Shown here: positions 3,675 through 34,259 of the stretch, in pieces
How the letters are laid out: each line of letters opens with the position of its first letter
Numbering within the stretch: the stretch's first letter is position 1
Source: a virus
Lineage: Duplodnaviria; Caudoviricetes
IMG/VR virus record: IMGVR_UViG_3300037183_000082
Location: 1 to 64,000 of that record
Length of the DNA: 64,000 nucleotides
Direction: 5' to 3' (one strand)
Position numbers and translations under genes: made by a program
The notes under the pieces: generated by a model
Databases searched by the model: none
Told to the model about the DNA's origin: nothing
The model's input: the letters and a program-made list of their open reading frames with translations, nothing else

Positions 3675-4415
3675 TCAGGCGACTGCGCGACGCTTCAGGC
3701 CGTCCATGTAGACGCGAAGCCGCCAGCTCTGGTCGAGGCCAGTGATCTGGCCGCCCGGCGTCTTGAGCGCAACGTACGCAGCACGGTCGGCGTCGATCTT
3801 GATCGGCAGGTTCCAGCGGCGCTGGTTGTCCGGCCACACGGGACCACCCGTGCCGTAGTCGAGCGCGAGGTTCGAGATGTTCGGACCACCGCCCTGGGCG
3901 ATGCTCACGAGCAACCCGTCGCCCGAGCTGAACGCCACCGCACCGAGACCTTGGCCGTAGTAGGCAAGGGGTGCGGAAGCCATCGGCTTCGAGATGTTCG
4001 CGCCGACGAACAGCTCCATGAGCATGTCCTTCTGCAGGCGGCGCAGGTTCGTGCCCGTGAGGATGGGATCGACCGCGGTAATGTCGGTCGAGCCCGGCTC
4101 CCCAAAGCTCGGATCGCGCTCAAGCGCGAAGGGCTCGTAGGTGAGGTTGAAGCAGATAAAGCCCTCATCGTGGTTGATGCGACCACGCACCACCTGGTTG
4201 GTGTCCGAGACACCCGCCGTGACGGGCGCAAGCACGCCCATGACGGGGATGCGGTCGCCCACCACGTACTCGAACAGGCGCAGATCGCCGCCAGCGCCGT
4301 TGCCGGAGCTTGCGACGTTGCCCTGCCCGAGGCCCGTCGAGAACAGCGGCCAGTGCAGCCACTCCTCGACGTTGATTTCGGTGCCGTCCGTGAGTCGGAT
4401 TTTCTCGATTGCCAT
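3675..4415 (-). CDS. putative major capsid protein, single jelly-roll type, paralog 3
   Basis: N-term IEKIRLTDG-EINVEEW-HWPLFST and C-term RVYMDGLKRRAVA are shared with the two upstream genes. Confidence 0.65.
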   Translation of the reverse strand: MAIEKIRLTDGTEINVEEWLHWPLFSTGLGQGNVASSGNGAGGDLRLFEYVVGDRIPVMGVLAPVTAGVSDTNQVVRGRINHDEGFICFNLTYEPFALERDPSFGEPGSTDITAVDPILTGTNLRRLQKDMLMELFVGANISKPMASAPLAYYGQGLGAVAFSSGDGLLVSIAQGGGPNISNLALDYGTGGPVWPDNQRRWNLPIKIDADRAAYVALKTPGGQITGLDQSWRLRVYMDGLKRRAVA

Positions 4416-4424
4416 GGTTTCCCC

Positions 4425-5117
4425 TCACGCCACCGCACGACGGCGGAAACCGTCGAGGAAGAGACGGCACACGAGGCGCGCGTCCGTTTGCAGGTTGAGG
4501 CCCGCGACCTCGCCCTTGTTGAAGCTGAGCGCGACCTTGAAGGCCTCGCCGCCTGCGACGTAGAGCGGGCTCGCCAACGCGCGCACGCCCTCGGTGCTGG
4601 TCGAGCCGTTGTAGGCGACCGCCGTGCCCGTGGCGCCGTCCGACACGCGTGTCAGACCGCCCGAGTACACGTGCTGGACACCCGCGGCGCCCGGCCAGTA
4701 CGACAGCGGGCTCTGGGTGTAGTTCTTGACCGCCGCGATCGACAGCTCGATGAGCGTGTCGCGCTGCAGACGAAGCATGTCGGGCAGCGGGACCTCAGGC
4801 TGGTCCGGGTCGGGGAACGCGTTCGGGTCCAGGGCAAGGCCCTGCTTGAACACGTCGATCGCGAGGTAGTGAATCGCGATCTCCTCGTTCTCCGGGAGCT
4901 TCGAGCCCTCGCCCTGCAGGTTGGTGTCGATGGCGGTGGCCATGCGCGGCCCGACGCTGCCCGGCACCACGTCGCCTGACGTGTAGCTGAACGCGTTGAG
5001 GGTCGTGATAGGTCCCGCCGCGACCTCGACCGTGGACCAGAGAGGGACGGCAGACGTCCACTCGCCGGGAACCACGACCATGCCATTCGGTAGACGCATT
5101 TTGCGAATCTGTGCCAT
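4425..5117 (-). CDS. putative major capsid protein, single jelly-roll type, paralog 2
   Basis: N-term QIRKMRLPNG-VVVPGEW-SAVPLWST; C-term RLFLDGFRRRAVA. Confidence 0.65.
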   Translation of the reverse strand: MAQIRKMRLPNGMVVVPGEWTSAVPLWSTVEVAAGPITTLNAFSYTSGDVVPGSVGPRMATAIDTNLQGEGSKLPENEEIAIHYLAIDVFKQGLALDPNAFPDPDQPEVPLPDMLRLQRDTLIELSIAAVKNYTQSPLSYWPGAAGVQHVYSGGLTRVSDGATGTAVAYNGSTSTEGVRALASPLYVAGGEAFKVALSFNKGEVAGLNLQTDARLVCRLFLDGFRRRAVA

Positions 5118-22767: not shown

Positions 22768-24435
22768 ATGACATCGCTGCGTTACCGTCTCGCGTCCAGC
22801 GCACGCTGGGCCTCGCTTATTTGGAGCGAGGAGCGGGGCCACTCCCAAGAGTTTCTTTTGGCGTGCGCAGCGGCACTTCCCATCCCCGGGGTGCGTGAGC
22901 ACCCAAAGGCGATCGATGTTCCCGTAACGGCTTTCATGCTGCCGGAAGTACATCGGTTGTTTGCGGCAGCTCGGGTCGACATCCCTACCCCACGTTCGGA
23001 TGTCGACCCGGGCAAGCTGTGGTCACCACAGCAAAAGCCCTTTGATCACCAAGTGGAAGGTGCGCGCTTCATCGTGAACGCGGGCTCTGCACTTGTCTGC
23101 GACGAAATGGGAGTCGGTAAGACTCGCACTGCGATTCAGGCTGCGCAGTCTGCTCGACTTAGCTGGGGCGGACCTGCTGTCATTGTTGCACCCAAGTTCA
23201 CCCGCGCGACTTGGTTGCGCGAGCTGCTCGCGACAGGCGCCATCGAAAACCCCACCCAGTTCTGCGCGCTCGAATCGCGCGACCTCGGAGATAGCTCGTT
23301 TCGCGCCGGCTGCCACTACTACTTCGTGCACTACGACGTCGTTTCGACGTGGTGGACACGCCTGCAGTCGTCTGAGCGCCCGACGGTGACCATCGTCGAT
23401 GAGGCGCACTGGATCAAGAACGGCCGGGCCAAGCGATCCAAGGGCGCAGATCTCGCAACTGCCGGCACTCACATGCGGATTTTGCTCACGGGCACGCCGC
23501 TCGTGAACAGCCCTGCAGACCTCTGGTACCCGCTTCAATGCGTCACAGGAGCATCCACTTGGGGCAGTCCGCTCGACTTCAGGGTTCGCTACAACGGTGC
23601 GATACGTACGTCGTATGGTCATAAGGACCTAGGGCCAACCTACACGAACGAGCTGCGTCTGCGCATGGCGCCTTGGTACCTGCGCCGCACGACTGAACAG
23701 GCCGGCCTGCAGCTCCCTGCGCTCACGCGCACCGCAGTCGAGTGTGAGATGTCGCGCGCGCTTGCTCGCGAGCACAGCGGCATTCTCGGCAAGGTCGATC
23801 CGGCAGCCATCGTCACCGCGATCTTGGAAAACCGGATGGGGACCGAGACGCTCAAGATGCTCAATCGGCTGCGCCAGATCACGTCCGCGGCCAAGCTCGG
23901 CGACACCGCCGAGTACGTGAGCAACATCCTCGACCAGGGCGACGCCGCGGTGGTGTTCGTCTGGCAGCCCGAAACCGCCCGCAAGCTTCGCGCGCGCATG
24001 GCCGAGCCTGACGCGCACGCTGAAATCACAGGTGACCAGGACCAAGGCACGCGCGACGCGTTGATCGCAGCGTTCCAGGCCGGCGCGGGGCCCGCCGCTC
24101 TGTTCTGCACCTACGGCACCGTGCGCGAGGGTGTGACGCTGCATCGCGCGCGCCATGTTGTGCACCACGACCTCGACTGGACAGCCGTCACCATCCAGCA
24201 GGCTGAAAAGCGCATTCACCGCATCGGCCAGAACCGCGCTTGCACAGCCACTTGGATGGTCGCGCGCAACTCGATGGACACCATTTTCGCGGAGGTTCTG
24301 CGCGCCAAGCTCGACGCCGCACAGCAGGTGTTCGGCGACGCGAACCCCTTCGAGGCATCTCTCGACACGATTTCGGTCGGCATGTCCCTGCAGGACAAGA
24401 TGCGCGCCGCGATCGAGGAATGGCGGGCGTGGTGA
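22768..24435 (+). CDS. SNF2-family (SF2) helicase
   Basis: DEMGVGKT (I), DEAH (II), LTGTP (III), REGVTL (V), QAEKRIHRIGQ (VI). Confidence 0.92.
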   Translation: MTSLRYRLASSARWASLIWSEERGHSQEFLLACAAALPIPGVREHPKAIDVPVTAFMLPEVHRLFAAARVDIPTPRSDVDPGKLWSPQQKPFDHQVEGARFIVNAGSALVCDEMGVGKTRTAIQAAQSARLSWGGPAVIVAPKFTRATWLRELLATGAIENPTQFCALESRDLGDSSFRAGCHYYFVHYDVVSTWWTRLQSSERPTVTIVDEAHWIKNGRAKRSKGADLATAGTHMRILLTGTPLVNSPADLWYPLQCVTGASTWGSPLDFRVRYNGAIRTSYGHKDLGPTYTNELRLRMAPWYLRRTTEQAGLQLPALTRTAVECEMSRALAREHSGILGKVDPAAIVTAILENRMGTETLKMLNRLRQITSAAKLGDTAEYVSNILDQGDAAVVFVWQPETARKLRARMAEPDAHAEITGDQDQGTRDALIAAFQAGAGPAALFCTYGTVREGVTLHRARHVVHHDLDWTAVTIQQAEKRIHRIGQNRACTATWMVARNSMDTIFAEVLRAKLDAAQQVFGDANPFEASLDTISVGMSLQDKMRAAIEEWRAW

Positions 24436-25451
24436 TCCTCGACATCCTATACGACCCGATGCCCGCTGCGAAGCGCCCGACCGAGCGGCGTGCGCTAGGC
24501 GAGGTCGGCATTCCGAACGAGGGGGCCTCGCCCACGGGCAGCTCGTTCTACAAGACGTTGCTCGCGTGCCCGCGGGAGTTTGCGCTCGCGCACGTCGAGG
24601 GCATCCGGCCTGTGATCGAGCGCGACGAGCTGTCGATCGGGATCATCTTCCACCACGCGCTCATGGTGTACTACCGCGCGATCTACGAGCACCAACAGCG
24701 GTGCAAACCGGCCACGCGCTGTCCTGTCGGCAATGAAAAGCTAGCGCCCGAGTGGCAGCACTTCTTCTGGGGCAACCAGCGCGAGGCTGGCCAGGCTGCG
24801 TTTGCGTCCGTGCTGCAGCTCGCAGCAGAGCCTGGCTACACGGAGATCTACGAGACCGTCGAGCGCTGCCTTGAAGCCTATTTCGAGACCTATTGGCGCA
24901 CCGACCGCTGGATTGTCGTCGCGGTCGAGGAGACGATCATTCGCAACGGGTTGCCGACGCCATGGAGCGCACGCCTCGATCTATTCATCCACGACATGAA
25001 AGACGACGGCCTGTGGATCTGCGAGCACAAGACCGCGAAGTTCATCAACGCCGACCTCATCGACAACTATGAGATGGACATTCAGATCCTCGGCCAAAAG
25101 TGGCTCGTGCAGCGTTGTGTTGATCTCACCGCGTACCCGCACTTCAAGGGCGTGCTCATCAACATCGTGAGCAAGGCGAAAACACCCAAGCTCGTGCGCA
25201 CCCAGGTAAGCCCGAGCCCCGCGCACCTGCGCGAGTTCGAGAACACGCTCGCGAGCCTTCCCGTGCAGCGCAAGGTCTATGAGCGCCTCGGTTGGCCGAA
25301 GTTCCTCGGCCACTGCTCGGGCTACGCGCGCGGCTACTCGCGGTGTCAATTCTATTCGCTTTGCCATGACTACCCGGAAGTCACGCCCGCGCAGTGGCGC
25401 GGCTTCGATTTGCCGGAGGAGTTTGAACGTAAGGAGGTTGCTGTGCCCTAG
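24432..25451 (+). CDS. PD-(D/E)XK nuclease, Cas4/RecB-like
   Basis: AVEE..ARLDL..CEHKT catalytic motifs, QILG motif, N-terminal Cys (CPRE) plus C-terminal C-x9-C-x5-C. Confidence 0.8.
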   Translation: MILDILYDPMPAAKRPTERRALGEVGIPNEGASPTGSSFYKTLLACPREFALAHVEGIRPVIERDELSIGIIFHHALMVYYRAIYEHQQRCKPATRCPVGNEKLAPEWQHFFWGNQREAGQAAFASVLQLAAEPGYTEIYETVERCLEAYFETYWRTDRWIVVAVEETIIRNGLPTPWSARLDLFIHDMKDDGLWICEHKTAKFINADLIDNYEMDIQILGQKWLVQRCVDLTAYPHFKGVLINIVSKAKTPKLVRTQVSPSPAHLREFENTLASLPVQRKVYERLGWPKFLGHCSGYARGYSRCQFYSLCHDYPEVTPAQWRGFDLPEEFERKEVAVP

Positions 25452-25501
25452 TGCTTTGTACGGCACGGTTTTGCGCCGCACGGTACTGCACCGTCAGGTA
25501 G
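25452..25501 (+). repeat. period-5 NGY-NN tract 1 (10 units), candidate guide RNA
   Basis: tgctt tgtac ggcac ggttt tgcgc cgcac ggtac tgcac cgtca ggtag; 10 of 10 fit NGY. Confidence 0.85.
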
Positions 25502-25529
25502 AAAGATGGATTCAAAAAGTTTCTGCCGC

Positions 25530-25635
25530 GGTTCTGTCAATCGTGGTTCGGTAGCGTGGGGTTCTGTGGAGTTAGTTTATGCAGCGTGATGTCTCCTAGC
25601 GTCATGTTTGGCTCGGTTCGGCTCTAGTTCGGTTC
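25530..25635 (+). repeat. period-5 NGY-NN tract 2 (21 units, one 1-nt slip), candidate guide RNA
   Basis: ggttc tgtca atcgt ggttc ggtag cgtgg ggttc tgtgg agtta gttta tgcag cgtga tgtct cctag cgtca tgttt ggctc ggttc ggctc (t) agttc ggttc; 18 of 21 NGY, 21 of 21 Y at position 3. Confidence 0.85.
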
Positions 25636-25663
25636 GACAAGACGAAGAAAAGGGTGGTTTTCA

Positions 25664-26332
25664 ATGCAAAGAACAAGAATCAGTTTCGAGGGTGTGAGTC
25701 CGCTTCTACAGAATCGGATGTCAGAGGAACAGCTCATGGCGCTCTTTACGAAAGAGCCGAGCACGCGGCGCAAGTTCGAGGCGCCCAAGGACATTCGCGA
25801 GACGGCGCGAAGCAAAGTACACATGACCGAGGCAGGACTGCCCTACGTTCCGGCAGAGATGTTCATGTCGTGCTGCATCATCGCAGGTCGCTTTATCAAA
25901 CTCGACGGCAAGCGGCAGATGTCGACAGCTAACTCGACGCTCCTGCCCGGCTTTCTCTCAGTCGAAGAGACGTTCTTCTACCTCGTGGACCCGCGACAGG
26001 GCGGCCCGGCCGAGTGGGCAACAGCTACGCAAACAGCCCCGGCGCAGCCAAAACACCCAGCTGAGTGGGAATCCGACATTCGACGTGGTGTGAGCAACAA
26101 CGCAGGTGGAAGCGCCGTTGCCATCGTACGCCCCCGCTTTGATCGCTGGGGTTTCACGGTGACGTGCATGCTCGACACCGATCAGCTCAGTGAAGCAACT
26201 TTCCGCGAGCTGTTCGATATTGCTGGCTCGCGCGTCGGGATCGGCGACTTCCGTCCGATGCGCAAAGGCATTTACGGTCGTTTCAAGGTCACAGGCTGGC
26301 AGCGCATGGACGAGCTGAAGTCCGCATCATGA
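25664..26332 (+). CDS. stand-alone RAMP / Cas7-like RNA-binding protein
   Basis: RAMP-like motifs: first strand ISFEGVSPLLQN, PYVPAE, thumb-like ..VAIVRPRF, C-terminal Gly-rich loop GSRVGIGDFRPMRKGIYGRFKV. Confidence 0.75.
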   Translation: MQRTRISFEGVSPLLQNRMSEEQLMALFTKEPSTRRKFEAPKDIRETARSKVHMTEAGLPYVPAEMFMSCCIIAGRFIKLDGKRQMSTANSTLLPGFLSVEETFFYLVDPRQGGPAEWATATQTAPAQPKHPAEWESDIRRGVSNNAGGSAVAIVRPRFDRWGFTVTCMLDTDQLSEATFRELFDIAGSRVGIGDFRPMRKGIYGRFKVTGWQRMDELKSAS

Positions 26333-27069
26333 GCAGCTTGCTCGCCAAATGTCTGAACGCGCAGACGATCAACACCGATGGGCAACTGCCCTGGCTGCAC
26401 TTCTTCGTGTATGGCGAGGGCGGAAGTGGGAAAACCACACTCTGCGCGACCTTTCCGCGTCCGCTGCTCCTCGTGCCGAAGATTGAAAACTCGGTCACGA
26501 CGCTTGCAGGACAGGACGTGCCCTACCTCTTTACGGATGGCCGGAACGCGACCCTTCGCAATGGCTGCGGCGGCCTTGAAACCATCGTGGCGATGCTTGA
26601 GAACGAGTACACCGCGAACCCTCAGGCCTTCCCGTTCGATACGATCTGTCTGGAGTCGTTCTCGCACTACATCGAGATCTTCCAAGAGGAGCTGACGCAG
26701 GGCAACAAGACGGCCATGGACCAGCGCGGCTGGGGGTTGCTCGCCACCCACGTCCGCAACATCCAGGCCCGGCTGCGCGCGCTCGAAGTGCACGTGGTGT
26801 TCACGGCGCTCGCCAAGCTTGAAACCGACGCTGCCGGCCACACGCATGGCGGCCCGATGCTCCCGGGCAAGACGGCGGCGATGCTTCCGACCGCGTGTGA
26901 CGTCGTTGCGTACTGCGAGGCCGGCACAGGCAAGGTGCCCATCTACAAGACGCACTTTCGCCGGCACAACCACTTCTTTGCGCGCACGCGCTTCAAGAGC
27001 CTGCCGGCTGCCATCGAAAACTGCACTTTCGAGAAGATGCGTCCATTCCTGGACGGATCTGCTCAGTAA
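26329..27069 (+). CDS. AAA_24 / Sak4-like recombination ATPase
   Basis: VYGEGGSGKTT Walker A, TICLESFS Walker B, WG motif, HVVFTA. Confidence 0.85.
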   Translation: MSSLLAKCLNAQTINTDGQLPWLHFFVYGEGGSGKTTLCATFPRPLLLVPKIENSVTTLAGQDVPYLFTDGRNATLRNGCGGLETIVAMLENEYTANPQAFPFDTICLESFSHYIEIFQEELTQGNKTAMDQRGWGLLATHVRNIQARLRALEVHVVFTALAKLETDAAGHTHGGPMLPGKTAAMLPTACDVVAYCEAGTGKVPIYKTHFRRHNHFFARTRFKSLPAAIENCTFEKMRPFLDGSAQ

Positions 27070-29590: not shown

Positions 29591-29988
29591 CACCCGTCCA
29601 ACTTGAGAGCCCTTACGCAGGCCACGTCCATCGCAACAAGGCCTACCTACAGCTCTGCATCCGCGATTGCTTTGAGCGCGGCGAGGCGCCATTCGCGTCG
29701 CACCAGCTCTATGTGGATGCGCTCGACGACGACATCGCGATCGAGCGAAAGCAGGGCATCGAAGCGGGCTTGATCTGGGGCAAGTTCGCCGAACGTACGG
29801 TGGTCTACACAGACTTCGGGATTTCGAGTGGCATGAAGCACGGAATCCTTGCGGCCGAGAAGCTTCGACGCCCGTGCATTTTTCGCACGCTGAAAGACTT
29901 CGACCGCGTCACGTTCTACACGGCGACTGACGAGCTGCAAGAGACAGACTGGCACGAGCTGCTCACACGCTGCCGGAGCGTGCGATGA
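29587..29988 (+). CDS. phage protein with ESPY motif (nucleoside deoxyribosyltransferase-like fold)
   Basis: LESPYAG..GEAPFASH..VVYTDFGISSGM. Confidence 0.7.
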   Translation: MTPVQLESPYAGHVHRNKAYLQLCIRDCFERGEAPFASHQLYVDALDDDIAIERKQGIEAGLIWGKFAERTVVYTDFGISSGMKHGILAAEKLRRPCIFRTLKDFDRVTFYTATDELQETDWHELLTRCRSVR

Positions 29989-32900
29989 GCCCGAACCGCC
30001 CGACGCGTTTTCCGATCTACACCGAGGCGCACGCCAACTGCAGCAAGTGCGAGCTGCAACCAGCCTGCGAGGACGGCAAGGTCGTACAGGCCTACCAGCC
30101 GGCCAGCGACGCGCCTTTCAACGGTATCATGATCGTGGGCGAGGGTCCCGGGCATCACGAGGTCATCCAGGGCCGCCCGTTCGTGGGACCTTCCGGGCGC
30201 TTGCTCCGTGCGATTCTCAAGTCGCTCGGGGCTGATCTCGACGCTTGCTACATCACCAACGCAACGTTGTGCCGACCGCCTATCACGGCATCGGATGACA
30301 AACGCTCGTTCATGCAGAAGTTCCCCCGCGCGGTGCACAGCTGCCTGCCGCGCCTGGAGCTTGAGATCACTGCTGTCCGCCCGCGCGTGATCCTCGCGCT
30401 CGGGGCACAAGCCCTGGCTGCGCTCACGGGCTACGAGGAGCACTACACGAAGCTTCTGCCCGCGCCGCCGTGCGAGACGTGTAAGGGCGGCCATGTGCTG
30501 AAAGACGGTGGGGAGACGCCGCGCAGGGTGGTCGGCGTGCAGTGCTCCAAAGGTGAGTGCAAGCACCGCATTCTCTTGCCGCCCCAGTTCGAGGGAAAGA
30601 AGGTCAAAGGGCTCGATCTGCCCGATATCCTGCCCACGGATTGCCCCAAGTGCGGCGCGACCTTGCAGCGGCTCACGGTGCGACAGATCCCGTGCCCGAC
30701 CTGCGGCGGCCTCAAGCGCGTCGAGACGCCACTTGTGAACTTTCGGTGGGACTACCAGCTCGGCGAGGTCGCAGGGGCTGTCATCGATGCGAGCAAGCAC
30801 GGGTGGGAGACGTGTGGCGTGCGGTACGTGATCGCGACCTACCACCCCTCGTTCTTGCTTCGACCTCCGCCCAGCTCAGGCACGGGCGAGGACAAGGCCA
30901 TGGGCGGCCAGTACGCGGCGCCTTGCGTTCAGAAGCACATGAAAAAGTCGCTGCGTCTACTCACCGAGGACGCGGACTGGTCCACAGGTTTTGAGGTCAC
31001 AGACGAGTCGGACCACACAGACGCTGCGGCGCACTTGCTCGACTACATCTACGGCGACCCGGCAGTCACCGAGTTCACATGCGATATCGAGAGCGAGGGC
31101 TGGGGCTCCGAATACGTCTGCCAGGTGTGCGAGACGAAGTCTGGGATCATCCGCACCGCACCACCGACCGAGCTGTCCGCCGAGCTGCACCATTGCGAGA
31201 CGTGCACAACCGCCGCGAACGCAGTTTTGCGGGCGGAGAACAAGGAAGAAACGGGCCCGCTGTTCACGCAGCACGTGCCGATCGTAAAAGAGCTGGACGC
31301 CCGCAAGATCGCCGAGGTGTCGAAGATCAAGATCCTGGGGTTCGCGAGCCGTAAGCGTGGCTATTCGTTGGTCACAGACACGCGCACGCTCGACCCTGAC
31401 AATACAAGCGACCCGCTCTATCAGGCCATCGTCAAGGTGCTCACCGACACGACCTTGCGCATCTGCTTTCACCACGGCAACTACGACGTGCCGGCGCTGT
31501 ACAAGCTCTGGGGCATTGAGGTCAAGAACTACACAGACGACACGCTGATCCTGCACCACGATCTGTACCCGGACGAAAAGCACTCGCTGTCGCACGTCGC
31601 ATTCGAGTTTACCGATGTCCACGCGTGGAAGCCGCCCAAGAAACTTCACAACCGACTCGCGCACGAGTCGTTCGAGGAAGAGTGCGCGTACAACGCACGC
31701 GACACGATGCTCACGGACGACTCGCTCCAACAGATGAAGCTCAAGCTTGCCCCGAAGCACCTCGATAAGGTCTACGCCATCGACATGCAGCTGCAGCAGC
31801 AGGCTGTTGAGATGTGGCGCAACGGGATGTACGTCGACAAAGACAACGCCATCCGCATCGGCCAGGAGGCAGTCGACCGCGAGCTACGCCTGCAAGCCGA
31901 AATGCGCAAGCTGCTCAAGTGGGACAACTTCAACCCGCGTTCTGCCACGCAGCTGGCTGAGGCGCTGTTCGATCGCTTTGGCTACACGCCCTCGAAGATG
32001 ACTGAGGGTGGCGCGCGCTCGACCGCGAAAGAGGTCGTGCTGCGGCTCACAGACAGCCCCTTTAAGCGCCTCGTGCTCGACCACAAGGATGCCGTGGCCA
32101 CGCTGGCTAACTTCTTCGAGGTGGTAGACAACCGCGCCTACCCGGGGCGCAGCCTGCGCATCTGGAACGACCAGCGCATCCGCGCGACGTGGAAAGCGTA
32201 CGGCGCACGCACGGGGCGTTTCTCGTCCAATCCCAACTTTCAAAACTGGAAGGCGTGGCTCAAGGCACTCGTGACCTGCGCGCCAGGCCGCAAGATCGTG
32301 GGTGCCGATTACGACCAGCTGGAGCTGCGCATTCTTGCTGCCCTGAGCGGTGATCCTGTGCTCATGGAAAAGTGTCTGAACGCCGACGAGAACGACAAGC
32401 TCAACCCGGACAAGGACCCGCACAGCTACGTGGCGTTTTTCGCGTTCGGCAAGCTGTTCACGGATCTAGACAAGAACGACCCGGCGCACGACAAAAAGAA
32501 CGAGCGCTGCAAGTGCCAGAAGTGCGAGCGCAAGGCCCTGCGCGATATCTGCAAGCGTGTGATCTACGGCATGAACTACGGCGCGGGCGACGAGACCGTG
32601 CTCGAAGCCATCTATTCAGGCGGGTACAACGGCCCGCCCATCTCGCTCGACATGATCGGCCGCGTCCGCAAGGCCATCTACACCGCGTTCAGTGGGATCA
32701 AGGCCTACCAGGAAAAGCTCTACACCGACGCCGTCAAGAACAAGGCGATCTTTTCGCCGCTGCTCGGCCGCCGTCGGATCTTCCCGCTCGGCGATGTGCC
32801 GTTCACCGAGATCCTCAACTTCCCAATCCAGTGTCTTACCGGCGCGACGCGCGTTCTCACTGATCGCGGCTACCAGACGCTCGAAAGTCTCAACGCGCTC

Positions 32901-34259
32901 ACGCAAGCACATACGGGCAGCGAACAGGTGCAAGCACGGGTGCTCTCGAAGGGCGCGGAGCAAGTTTGGCGTGTGACGCTAGACAACGGGCAGCAAATCG
33001 AAACGAACGAGGGTCACTATTTGCTCGGCACGAACGGCTGGCTCGCGACGGGTGAGCTGCAGCCTGACACACTGATCGCGCAACCACTTGCACGAGAGCA
33101 GCCAACGCGCCGTGACATGACGGCAGGTTTCGGGCGGGACCCGGACACGTTCTACTGGCTCGGCTACTACGTCGGCAACGGTTCTTGGGATACCGACGAT
33201 GCGATCAAATTCGCGTTCGGTTCGCGTGTGAAGCGGCAACACCATAGTGAATACGCCACCAAGTTCCTGGAGTGGGCGCGCTTGCACGAGCTTGCACCGC
33301 AAAAGCCGCAGATCGAGCTAAACCTTACTTGCGTGACGTTGCAGAACCACGCGGCGCGCGAACTGTTCACAAGTCTCGGCGTTATGCCCGGGGCTGGCGC
33401 GCATCAAAAGCGGCTTCCGGAAGCTGCGTGGGCGGGCTCGATTGCGGAGCGCAAAGCCTTCTTGGTCGGGCTGCTCGATGCCGACGGTTCGCTTGCGACA
33501 GACCCGCCCAACATCACGTTGTGCAACCGCGCTTTGCTTCAGGACGTGCAGCTCCTACTGCGGACGGTCGGGATTCCGAGCCGCCTGTACGGGCCCTATG
33601 TCGCGGATCGTGCGGGTCACCTGGCGTGGCGTCTCACGATTCCAGGGACGCTGCTCACACGACTCGGGTACGGGCAAGCGCAGCGTGTGCGGTACCCGAA
33701 TGACGTGTCACTGGATCCGACCTCTATTGCGGAGTTTCTGGATACGTTCCCCAAGAATCCGTTCAGTTTTTCGACACAGCAAAGCATGTACATGCTCTGG
33801 CGGCGGATCTCAGAGGGTGGTTTCACGAACCCCCACACGCTTTTACGCATGTGGGAGGCGCTCGACGCAACACCGACCCAACCGATTTACGCTTTCCATG
33901 CGGTGCGCAGCGTCGAGCGTTTGGATCGCGCGGCGCCGATGTTCACGCTTCACGTTGACCACCCACTCCATCGTTACGACAGCGCTGGCGTGATCAGCAA
34001 AAACTCAGGCGGCGCAGACATCATGAACCAGCGCAATCTTATCTTCGGTGGCGAGGTGCGCAGCATCGATCCCACTGCGATGTACATCGCCCAGGTGCAC
34101 GACGCCGTCTACTACGAAGTCGACGAGCAGCGCGCGCCCCAGGTCGCAGACCGTATGACCGAGGTCCTCACCTGGGATACCGCGATGTACGAAGGCGGCC
34201 CCGTGATGCACTTCAGTGCGCAGGCGTCCATTGGCGACACCTGGAAGGCGGCAGCATGA
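29985..34259 (+). CDS. family A DNA polymerase with N-terminal uracil-DNA glycosylase domain, 3'-5' exonuclease and an intein
   Basis: UDG-4 motifs GEGPG/PFVGPSG/YHPS; exonuclease DIESE, DDT; polymerase RTGRFSS, DYDQLELR, KRVIYGMNYG, NFPIQ-SGGAD, QVHD. Confidence 0.93.
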   Translation: MSPNRPTRFPIYTEAHANCSKCELQPACEDGKVVQAYQPASDAPFNGIMIVGEGPGHHEVIQGRPFVGPSGRLLRAILKSLGADLDACYITNATLCRPPITASDDKRSFMQKFPRAVHSCLPRLELEITAVRPRVILALGAQALAALTGYEEHYTKLLPAPPCETCKGGHVLKDGGETPRRVVGVQCSKGECKHRILLPPQFEGKKVKGLDLPDILPTDCPKCGATLQRLTVRQIPCPTCGGLKRVETPLVNFRWDYQLGEVAGAVIDASKHGWETCGVRYVIATYHPSFLLRPPPSSGTGEDKAMGGQYAAPCVQKHMKKSLRLLTEDADWSTGFEVTDESDHTDAAAHLLDYIYGDPAVTEFTCDIESEGWGSEYVCQVCETKSGIIRTAPPTELSAELHHCETCTTAANAVLRAENKEETGPLFTQHVPIVKELDARKIAEVSKIKILGFASRKRGYSLVTDTRTLDPDNTSDPLYQAIVKVLTDTTLRICFHHGNYDVPALYKLWGIEVKNYTDDTLILHHDLYPDEKHSLSHVAFEFTDVHAWKPPKKLHNRLAHESFEEECAYNARDTMLTDDSLQQMKLKLAPKHLDKVYAIDMQLQQQAVEMWRNGMYVDKDNAIRIGQEAVDRELRLQAEMRKLLKWDNFNPRSATQLAEALFDRFGYTPSKMTEGGARSTAKEVVLRLTDSPFKRLVLDHKDAVATLANFFEVVDNRAYPGRSLRIWNDQRIRATWKAYGARTGRFSSNPNFQNWKAWLKALVTCAPGRKIVGADYDQLELRILAALSGDPVLMEKCLNADENDKLNPDKDPHSYVAFFAFGKLFTDLDKNDPAHDKKNERCKCQKCERKALRDICKRVIYGMNYGAGDETVLEAIYSGGYNGPPISLDMIGRVRKAIYTAFSGIKAYQEKLYTDAVKNKAIFSPLLGRRRIFPLGDVPFTEILNFPIQCLTGATRVLTDRGYQTLESLNALTQAHTGSEQVQARVLSKGAEQVWRVTLDNGQQIETNEGHYLLGTNGWLATGELQPDTLIAQPLAREQPTRRDMTAGFGRDPDTFYWLGYYVGNGSWDTDDAIKFAFGSRVKRQHHSEYATKFLEWARLHELAPQKPQIELNLTCVTLQNHAARELFTSLGVMPGAGAHQKRLPEAAWAGSIAERKAFLVGLLDADGSLATDPPNITLCNRALLQDVQLLLRTVGIPSRLYGPYVADRAGHLAWRLTIPGTLLTRLGYGQAQRVRYPNDVSLDPTSIAEFLDTFPKNPFSFSTQQSMYMLWRRISEGGFTNPHTLLRMWEALDATPTQPIYAFHAVRSVERLDRAAPMFTLHVDHPLHRYDSAGVISKNSGGADIMNQRNLIFGGEVRSIDPTAMYIAQVHDAVYYEVDEQRAPQVADRMTEVLTWDTAMYEGGPVMHFSAQASIGDTWKAAA
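32832..34004 (+). mobile_element. intein (391 aa) with LAGLIDADG homing endonuclease
   Basis: Starts CLTGATRV, has block B IETNEGH, LGYYVGNG and GLLDADG motifs, ends SKN before Ser; removal restores NFPIQ-SGGAD. Confidence 0.9.

What the first reader, a model, noticed from the sequence alone, without database searches (positions are those of the whole stretch)
25530..25635. Tract 2: 21 pentamer units with three deviant units and a TC-rich tail
19 units are in one phase (25530-25624), then a 1-nt slip precedes two more. The NN string is TC CA GT TC AG GG TC GG TA TA AG GA CT AG CA TT TC TC TC TC TC. All 21 units keep a pyrimidine at position 3 and 18 keep G at position 2. The last five units all end in TC and may be a constant 3' handle or an expansion seed. 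The deviant units (atcgt, gttta, cctag) could separate sub-guides; cctag also immediately precedes tract 1 (25447-25451). These roles are inference.
Basis: partly seen in the sequence, partly recalled or inferred. Interest (0 to 1): 0.78.

Follow-up and report, generated by a model that had tools for sequence, protein, structure and literature searches.

The report
VIPR guide-RNA tract beside vipr gene
The five-base repeat tract is real and is most likely a guide RNA gene (vrRNA) of a VIPR system, a CRISPR-related phage system for RNA-guided DNA silencing first described in 2026 preprints, so it is a new example of a known kind.

Summary
All 21 have a pyrimidine at position 3 and 18 have G at position 2. 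None of 5000 dinucleotide-preserving shuffles of the 212-bp gap reaches either tract's score.

Nearly all of 73 IMG/VR loci encoding homologues carry same-strand NGY-NN tracts directly flanking the gene. Two viruses with 97% identical vipr genes have different guide letters on the same G-Y scaffold.

Tract 2 is therefore best read as a vrRNA gene with the published degenerate YNNNG unit. The sub-claims are not supported: the TC run is not a shared handle, and nothing shows that the deviant units separate sub-guides.

No natural target was found under the published 1-nt-skip rule, and no dedicated accessory gene was identified.

This scan has already noted VIPR-like loci many times on other DNA (119 notes in at least 105 genomes). 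This is a new member of a known kind, of modest interest.

The parts
24429..25451 (+). Neighbour: Cas4-like PD-(D/E)XK nuclease gene; its TAG stop abuts tract 1. Not shown to belong to the system.
   Evidence: Pfam PDDEXK_1 E 1.8e-8 and phrog_1218 exonuclease; 340-aa gene call in the identical contig L084. It is adjacent to vipr in only 1 of 79 related loci.
25452..25501 (+). vrRNA tract 1: 10 of 10 NGY-NN units. NN string: TT AC AC TT GC AC AC AC CA AG.
25502..25529 (+). 28-nt A-rich linker between the tracts. The tracts are 3 nt out of phase, so they are separate arrays. The linker may be the 3' tail of vrRNA 1 (inferred).
   Evidence: No significant similarity to the 3' flank of tract 2.
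25530..25624 (+). vrRNA tract 2 (the finding): 19 in-phase pentamers, 16 of them NGY-NN. Deviants at 25540, 25575 and 25595. The best-scoring core is 25545-25624.
25625..25635 (+). One extra T, then two more units (AGTTC GGTTC). Together with 25610-25624 this forms a run of five xGYTC units that looks like a 10-nt block duplication.
   Evidence: Direct reading.
25636..25663 (+). 3' flank of tract 2. It starts with the deviant unit GACAA followed by GACGAAG, which resembles the TGCAA-ACGAAG end of a tract in L017. It then carries the purine-rich ribosome-binding region of vipr.
25664..26332 (+). vipr gene: 222-aa minimal RAMP (Cas7-like) protein. Homologues align from residue 1, so the start is ATG 25664; the database gene call (198 aa) starts at an internal ATG.
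26329..27069 (+). Neighbour: Sak4-like AAA_24 gene whose ATG overlaps the vipr stop (ATGA). It leaves no room for the downstream vrRNA array that most relatives have.

Best explanation
Tract 2 (25530-25635) and tract 1 (25452-25501) are the guide RNA genes (vrRNAs) of a VIPR system. Its single effector is the Vipr protein encoded directly downstream (25664-26332).

By homology with the SUSP1 system, the mechanism would run as follows. The tracts are transcribed on the + strand. One Vipr protomer binds each 5-nt unit, and the protomers form a helical filament. The protein flips out and holds the scaffold bases (here N-G-Y, the published YNNNG variant) and presents the two NN bases of each unit. 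The NN bases pair with double-stranded DNA that has the matching dinucleotides separated by one skipped base. The resulting R-loop/triplex blocks transcription of a competing mobile element.

Shown here: the repeat is real and non-random; the neighbour is a Vipr homologue with a RAMP fold; the tract-gene association is conserved across relatives; guide letters turn over on a fixed scaffold. Inferred from the papers: transcription, RNP assembly, the 1-nt-skip code and silencing. Unknown: the target, the RNA ends, and whether 19-21 units make one guide or two.
For: A profile of 38 homologues hits PDB 36pp_D 'SUSP1 Vipr protein' at E 1.9e-7 over residues 4-192 against 4-190. SUSP1 contact residues R138, D177, W178 and R179 (read) align with R156, D195, F196 and R197, which are invariant in the family.

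Nearly all of 73 IMG/VR loci with homologues (28-50% identity) carry NGY-NN tracts within about 1.5 kb of the gene, mostly abutting it, on the gene's strand. L035 and L039 have vipr genes 97% identical. Their upstream guides differ at positions 1, 4 and 5, position 2 stays G in all but one unit and position 3 stays a pyrimidine. The only change in their first downstream tract (14 units) is at the NN positions of one unit.

The gap RNA is no more structured than shuffles (z +0.48), as expected for a protein-bound guide. There is no self-target in the 80.6-kb genome, as the paper reports for natural systems. The system's definition, the YNNNG variant and the code come from bioRxiv 10.64898/2026.04.26.720920 and .720927.
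Against: No natural target was found under the 1-nt-skip rule. No promoter, terminator or conserved structured 3' tail was detected in the gap. No dedicated vap gene was recognised. Tract 2 has 19-21 units, more than the 9-16 reported for characterised vrRNAs, with three off-scaffold units and a 6-nt unit that would break the protomer register. The sequence link to SUSP1 Vipr is remote (profile E 1.9e-7). Expression was not tested.
Confidence: 0.88

Rival explanations
1. The tracts are a cis-acting leader. Vipr coats the 5' untranslated region of its own mRNA (tract 2 ends 28 nt before the start codon) and so autoregulates its translation. The tracts would have no trans target.
For: Tract 2 lies directly upstream of the vipr ribosome-binding region. 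No promoter or terminator separates it from the gene. No target was found.
Against: Most relatives also have tracts downstream of the gene, often several in a row, which cannot be leaders. NN letters turn over rapidly between near-identical viruses, which suggests selection on specificity rather than on mere binding. In SUSP1 the upstream vrRNA1 is a functional trans guide. The two roles are not mutually exclusive.
Confidence: 0.07
2. The tracts are a DNA-level element of the phage replication and recombination module, such as origin iterons or a recombination hotspot. They would be read as DNA by a neighbouring replication protein, not as RNA.
For: The gap lies between a Cas4-like nuclease gene and Sak4/SSB genes in a replication module. 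Relatives also place the cassette among replication genes.
Against: The tracts travel with vipr, not with any replication gene; the nuclease, Sak4, SNF2 and SSB genes are absent within about 4 kb of vipr in 78 of 79 related loci. They are strand-specific with respect to vipr. A 5-nt period with two free letters matches the solved Vipr-RNA contact pattern and matches no known iteron.
Confidence: 0.03
3. The periodicity is a chance or compositional feature of a G/T-rich spacer.
For: The motif-blind period-5 power is only modestly above the next-best windows. A 9-unit NGY run also occurs inside coding sequence at 4937-4981 on the minus strand.
Against: None of 5000 local dinucleotide shuffles reaches the score. 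The same feature recurs next to homologous genes in about 70 independent loci.
Confidence: 0.01

Closest known systems
VIPR systems (Vipr protein + vrRNA). Type II of Escherichia phage SUSP1 and the Pseudomonas fulva prophage are the characterised examples: bioRxiv 10.64898/2026.04.26.720920, 10.64898/2026.04.26.720927, 10.64898/2026.10.15.759431; PDB 36pp.
   Same: A small stand-alone RAMP protein of about 200 aa with a G-loop (GxGDFRP) and a thumb arginine. Tandem pentamers with a fixed trinucleotide and two variable letters, on the gene's strand, directly flanking the gene. Viral genome. No CRISPR array or cas genes. No self-target.
   Different: The scaffold is N-G-Y (position 1 is G 42%, T 33%, C 21%, A 4%) rather than G-G-Y; this is the YNNNG variant that the paper names but does not characterise in its main text. 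There is no recognisable structured 3' tail or pseudoknot and no vap1-like partner. Both tracts are upstream, with no downstream array. Tract 2 has 19-21 units against the published 9-16. Protein similarity to SUSP1 Vipr is detectable only with a profile. The type (I-VII) could not be assigned because the type definitions sit in figures and data files that are not held.
Class 1 CRISPR backbone subunits Cas7/Csm3 (types III and VII) with crRNA
   Different: The step is 5 nt with three guide bases displaced, not 6 nt with one. The guide information is written inside a repeat, not in a spacer between repeats. There is no Cas5, Cas6, Cas10 or large subunit, no adaptation genes and no array.
TRAP-type RNA-binding attenuation proteins (11 G/UAG triplets spaced by 2-3 nt)
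   Same: Triplet plus 2-nt spacer, giving a 5-nt period in a 5' leader bound by a protein oligomer. This comparison rests on my own knowledge and was an early lead only.
   Different: No TRAP-like protein is encoded here. The neighbouring protein is a RAMP. The tracts also occur downstream of the gene in relatives.

Membership tests
VIPR system | Vipr protein: a minimal stand-alone RAMP (RRM core, thumb, glycine-rich loop) related to published Vipr proteins | tested here: met
VIPR system | RNA-contact residues of the solved complex are conserved (SUSP1 R138 thumb; D177, W178, R179 G-loop; H17) | tested here: met
   They align with R156, D195, F196 and R197, all invariant in 38 homologues. H17 aligns with N17. 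That change does not track whether position 1 is G: the G fraction ranges from 0.03 to 1.0 among loci that have N17.
VIPR system | Tandem pentanucleotide repeats (GGY/NN or the related NNNGG, YNNNG or NNNNG units; the paper's calling threshold is at least 4 units, and characterised vrRNAs have 9-16) next to vipr on its strand | tested here: met
   Tract 1 has 10 of 10 units and tract 2 has 18 of 21, both YNNNG type, ending 163 and 29 nt before the start codon. The same arrangement is seen in nearly all of 73 related loci. Tract 2 exceeds the 9-16 range.
VIPR system | NN positions hypervariable while the scaffold is conserved among close relatives | tested here: met
   L035 against L039 (vipr 97% identical): over the 14 aligned upstream units, mismatches at unit positions 1 to 5 number 12, 4, 6, 10 and 12. 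Within the shared tract, position 2 stays G in all but one unit and position 3 stays Y. The only change in their first downstream tract (14 units) is at NN. No close variant of this window's own virus was available; L084 is identical.
VIPR system | Invariant structured 3' tail after the repeat tract (a pseudoknot in the SUSP1 clade) | tested here: inconclusive
   The two 3' flanks share no significant similarity. The gap folds no better than shuffles. There is no Rfam match. Relatives show a recurrent xGYAA-GGG end, and one array (L016) has a repeated 19-nt tail. The window has only a weak echo of this (GACAA-GACGAAG).
VIPR system | Accessory vap gene in an operon with vipr | tested here: inconclusive
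   No conserved partner was found. Neighbours differ between loci but are replication or recombination genes: helicase, PD-(D/E)XK, AAA_24, Prim-Pol, methylase, PolA. The paper says types III-V have nuclease or helicase vaps and some systems are minimal. The vap families could not be compared because they are not held.
VIPR system | vrRNA is expressed and co-purifies with Vipr | not testable with these tools
   Needs small-RNA sequencing or a pull-down.
VIPR system | Natural targets match the NN string with one skipped base (at least 80% NN match), usually in competing mobile elements | tested here: inconclusive
   No match above shuffled-guide controls in the virus's own genome or in 83 related loci. 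Exact tract 1 pattern: 0 in IMG/VR, 0 in JGI metagenomes, 2 chance-level hits in GTDB genomes. Seed-and-extend for tract 2 stayed at chance. Mismatch-tolerant scanning of large collections was not possible.
CRISPR-Cas class 1 | CRISPR array of direct repeats and spacers plus Cas5, Cas6 or a large subunit | tested here: not met
   TRF finds no array in 64 kb. No cas families were found among the 10 genes around the locus.

The most novel reading that the evidence does not exclude
In this Vipr clade, position 1 of the pentamer may be a third guide letter. YNNNG units would then read three bases per unit and close the published 1-nt skip, giving a contiguous-triplet code different from the characterised GGY/NN code. 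The basis is that position 1 differs between two near-identical viruses as often as the NN letters do, and that its base preference swings from 3% to 100% G among loci whose G1-contacting residues are the same. Against it: A is depleted at position 1 in this window, and local and phage-database searches with triplet rules gave nothing.
Probability: 0.1. Interest if true: 0.7.

Novelty: new member of a known kind. Interest (0 to 1): 0.3.

Why it matters
VIPR is a very recent discovery, proposed to be older than CRISPR and of interest as a compact programmable DNA binder. This locus adds a clean, minimal example in an uncultured 80.6-kb GC-rich virus. It has one protein and two upstream guides with the little-studied N-G-Y scaffold, wedged into the recombination module and translationally coupled to a Sak4-like gene.

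The comparative set gathered here (about 70 loci) shows two things. The scaffold's first letter is clade-specific and is not explained by the residue that reads G1 in SUSP1. The cassette recurrently sits among replication genes. Both are testable leads for how the code varies.

For the scan itself, the value is a firm annotation.

Tried and rejected
1. TRAP-like attenuator or origin iterons were my first guesses. I dropped them once the neighbour proved to be a Vipr RAMP.

2. The H17-to-N17 change as the cause of the degenerate first G. Rejected: loci with N17 range from 3% to 100% G at position 1.

3. A shared 3' handle. The two flanks are no more similar than shuffles, and the TC run is absent from tract 1 and from relatives.

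4. The Cas4-like nuclease, SNF2 or Sak4 genes as conserved partners. They are absent from 78 of 79 related loci.

5. [quoted passage not shown] - Related loci: nothing above controls.
- Exact tract 1 pattern: IMG/VR 0, JGI metagenomes 0, GTDB genomes 2 hits in a Promethearchaeota and a Bacteroidales MAG, about the number expected by chance.
- Tract 2 seeds for units 1-8, 8-15 and 4-12: extension gave 20-26 of 38. The best was L105 at 28 of 38 (74%), below the 80% criterion and with the skip base not at the codon wobble position.

6. Triplet (position 1 included) rules with skips of 0 to 2, tested locally, and a contiguous-triplet BLAST against phages: chance level.

7. Reading tract 2 as degenerate peptides and scanning Pfam: nothing, though 21-aa queries have little power.

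8. Rfam: no match in 24000-27000.

A host-pangenome target search was therefore impossible.

10. VIPR type assignment: the type definitions are in figures and data files that are not held.

Full report
**The observation**

The 212-bp gap between the stop of a Cas4-like nuclease gene (25451) and the ATG at 25664 was read directly and parsed in all five phases. Tract 2 is exactly as described:
- 19 in-phase pentamers from 25530 to 25624.
- One extra T at 25625, then AGTTC GGTTC.
- A pyrimidine at position 3 in all 21 units and G at position 2 in 18.
- Deviant units at 25540, 25575 and 25595.
- The NN string as written, and the last five units ending in TC.

Tract 1 (25452-25501) has 10 perfect units and lies 3 nt out of phase with tract 2.

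The pattern is far beyond chance:
- None of 5000 dinucleotide-preserving shuffles of the gap reaches a tract score of 10. The shuffle maximum is 8, and the gap holds two tracts of 10.
- In 100 Markov-2 simulations of 64 kb the best score averaged 6.2 and never exceeded 9.
- A motif-blind period-5 power scan of the whole 80.6-kb genome peaks at 25521-25541, though only modestly above other windows.
- TRF misses the tract because the units are not copies of each other.

**What it is**

The surrounding genes form a phage replication and recombination module: SNF2 helicase, PD-(D/E)XK nuclease, Sak4-like AAA_24, DUF669 SSB, Dam, and PolA with UDG and an intein. The 222-aa ORF after the tracts has no Pfam family and matches only phrog_4652, of unknown function.

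Its homologues (229 found, all unnamed) share invariant motifs, including a glycine-rich loop GLGDFRPxRKGxFG. A profile of 38 of them hits one solved structure, PDB 36pp 'SUSP1 Vipr protein', at E 1.9e-7 over the whole length.

The literature search led to three 2026 preprints on VIPR (Viral Interference Programmable Repeat) systems. These pair a lone ancestral RAMP, Vipr, with vrRNAs made of 9-16 GGY/NN pentamers followed by a 3' tail. The discovery paper explicitly lists variant units NNNGG, YNNNG and NNNNG. The unit here, N-G-Y-N-N, is the YNNNG form.

In the cryo-EM structures, G1 is read by H17 and D177, G2 by R138 and W178, and Y3 by R179 and helix 1. These align with N17, D195, R156, F196 and R197 of the window's protein. 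All but N17 are invariant in the family, and N17 is nearly so.

**Comparative evidence**

A scan of IMG/VR with the family alignment returned 80 loci. In nearly all of the 73 analysed, NGY-NN tracts scoring 6 to 90 lie just upstream and/or just downstream of the homologous gene, on its strand. Minus-strand calls appear mainly where the scaffold is GGC-rich, so that GC dinucleotides also read on the other strand.

L035 and L039 have vipr genes 97% identical. Their upstream guides differ at unit positions 1, 4 and 5. Position 2 stays G in all but one unit, position 3 stays a pyrimidine, and the 3' flank is conserved. In their first downstream tract (14 units) the only difference is the NN of one unit. 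This is the signature of a programmable guide on a fixed scaffold.

The only other contig carrying this window's own locus (Logan SRR11594338) is identical across the tracts, so it adds nothing.

**Mechanism**

The following is inferred from the papers, not shown here. The tracts are transcribed with or just ahead of vipr. One protomer binds each unit. The filament hides N-G-Y and presents NN. The target is double-stranded DNA carrying NN-x-NN-x, and binding forms an R-loop triplex that silences a competitor's gene.

Consistent with a protein-bound, unstructured guide, the gap RNA folds no better than shuffles (z +0.48) and matches no Rfam family. No sigma-70-like promoter or terminator lies in the gap, so co-transcription with the nuclease operon followed by processing is possible. 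The RNA ends are unknown.

The TC run is not a constant handle, for three reasons:
- Tract 1 lacks it.
- The two 3' flanks are no more similar than shuffles.
- The closest relatives instead often end a tract with xGYAA followed by GGG (13 of 38 tracts). One array (L016) repeats a 19-nt tail.

The TC run reads as GGCTCGGTTC / GGCTC-T-AGTTC / GGTTC. That is a two-unit block duplicated with an indel, which also explains the 1-nt slip.

Whether the three deviant units divide sub-guides cannot be decided. The discovery paper notes frequent internal degeneracy and also staggered arrays offset by 1 nt. Tracts of 20-57 units are common among relatives, so a 19-21-unit tract is not unusual in this clade.

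**Targets**

None was found.
[quoted passage not shown] Only the skip-3 'match' to the locus itself appears, which validates the scanner.
- Related loci: nothing.
- Exact tract 1 pattern (20 specified bases): absent from IMG/VR and from JGI metagenomes. It occurs twice in GTDB genomes, in a Promethearchaeota and a Bacteroidales MAG, about the chance expectation.
- Tract 2 seed-and-extend: 27 seeds extend at chance level. The best reaches 28 of 38, with skip bases off the wobble position.
- Triplet rules that include position 1: also nothing.

The host is unknown, so a host-pangenome search was not possible.

**Context**

The nuclease, SNF2, Sak4 and SSB genes are not conserved neighbours of vipr; only 1 of 79 loci has a PD-(D/E)XK gene and a Sak4 gene nearby. 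In the close relatives, however, the cassette again sits among replication genes: Prim-Pol, ParB-methylase, DEAD/ResIII helicase, a PD-(D/E)XK fusion, AAA_24, PolA-UDG and a serine recombinase. Whether any of these acts as a vap is open.

Unlike most relatives, this locus has no downstream array, because the vipr stop overlaps the Sak4 start (ATGA).

**Verdict**

This is a genuine vrRNA tract of a VIPR system: a new member of a known, recently published kind, with the degenerate YNNNG scaffold. The scan has already noted such loci 119 times in at least 105 genomes.

Noticed in passing
window 4937-4981 (minus strand): Nine consecutive NGY-NN units (CGTCA GGCGA CGTGG TGCCG GGCAG CGTCG GGCCG CGCAT GGCCA) lie inside overlapping long ORFs of the structural region. 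This is probably chance in 65% GC coding DNA (Markov maximum 9), but it could be a solo guide.
   Followed up: partly
window 25664 vs 25736: The public gene call for this protein (P0001, 198 aa) starts at an internal ATG. Homologues align from residue 1 of the 222-aa ORF, so the true start is 25664, with a purine-rich ribosome-binding region upstream. The protein also carries an insertion of about 20 aa (residues ~117-135) that relatives lack.
   Followed up: partly
L016:4618-5235 (IMG/VR 3300009826_001295): This downstream vrRNA array has four tracts that each end in TGTAA (the fourth in CCGTAA), followed by a near-identical tail (GGGCATTTCTAGAAC-like). It is a candidate invariant 3' tail for this Vipr clade. 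xGYAA-GGG ends recur in L005, L007, L008, L013 and L017.
   Followed up: partly
L021-L031 vs L055, L083 (IMG/VR loci): The first scaffold letter is clade-specific: T in 48-85% of units in the L021-L031 loci scored (a TGY scaffold) and G in 96-100% in L055 and L083. All of these have the same N17, D195, F196 and R197 residues, so the determinant of position-1 preference lies elsewhere in the protein.
   Followed up: partly
L035 and L039 (IMG/VR 3300045988 contigs), 3900-4000: Two viruses from one sample have 97% identical vipr genes but a completely different upstream guide next to a conserved 3' flank. This is a natural example of guide replacement.
   Followed up: yes
window 29985-34259: A 1424-aa ORF fuses a UDG-family domain, a 3'-5' exonuclease and a family A DNA polymerase, and contains a LAGLIDADG domain (a likely intein). 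L016 has a PolA-UDG fusion next to its vipr as well.
   Followed up: no
whole record: The window's genome is a single 80,634-bp virus record. The same virus appears as a 74.8-kb contig in Logan SRR11594338 and as a fragment in JGI 3300037226. It has no tRNA genes and no close cultured phage, so the host is unknown.
   Followed up: partly
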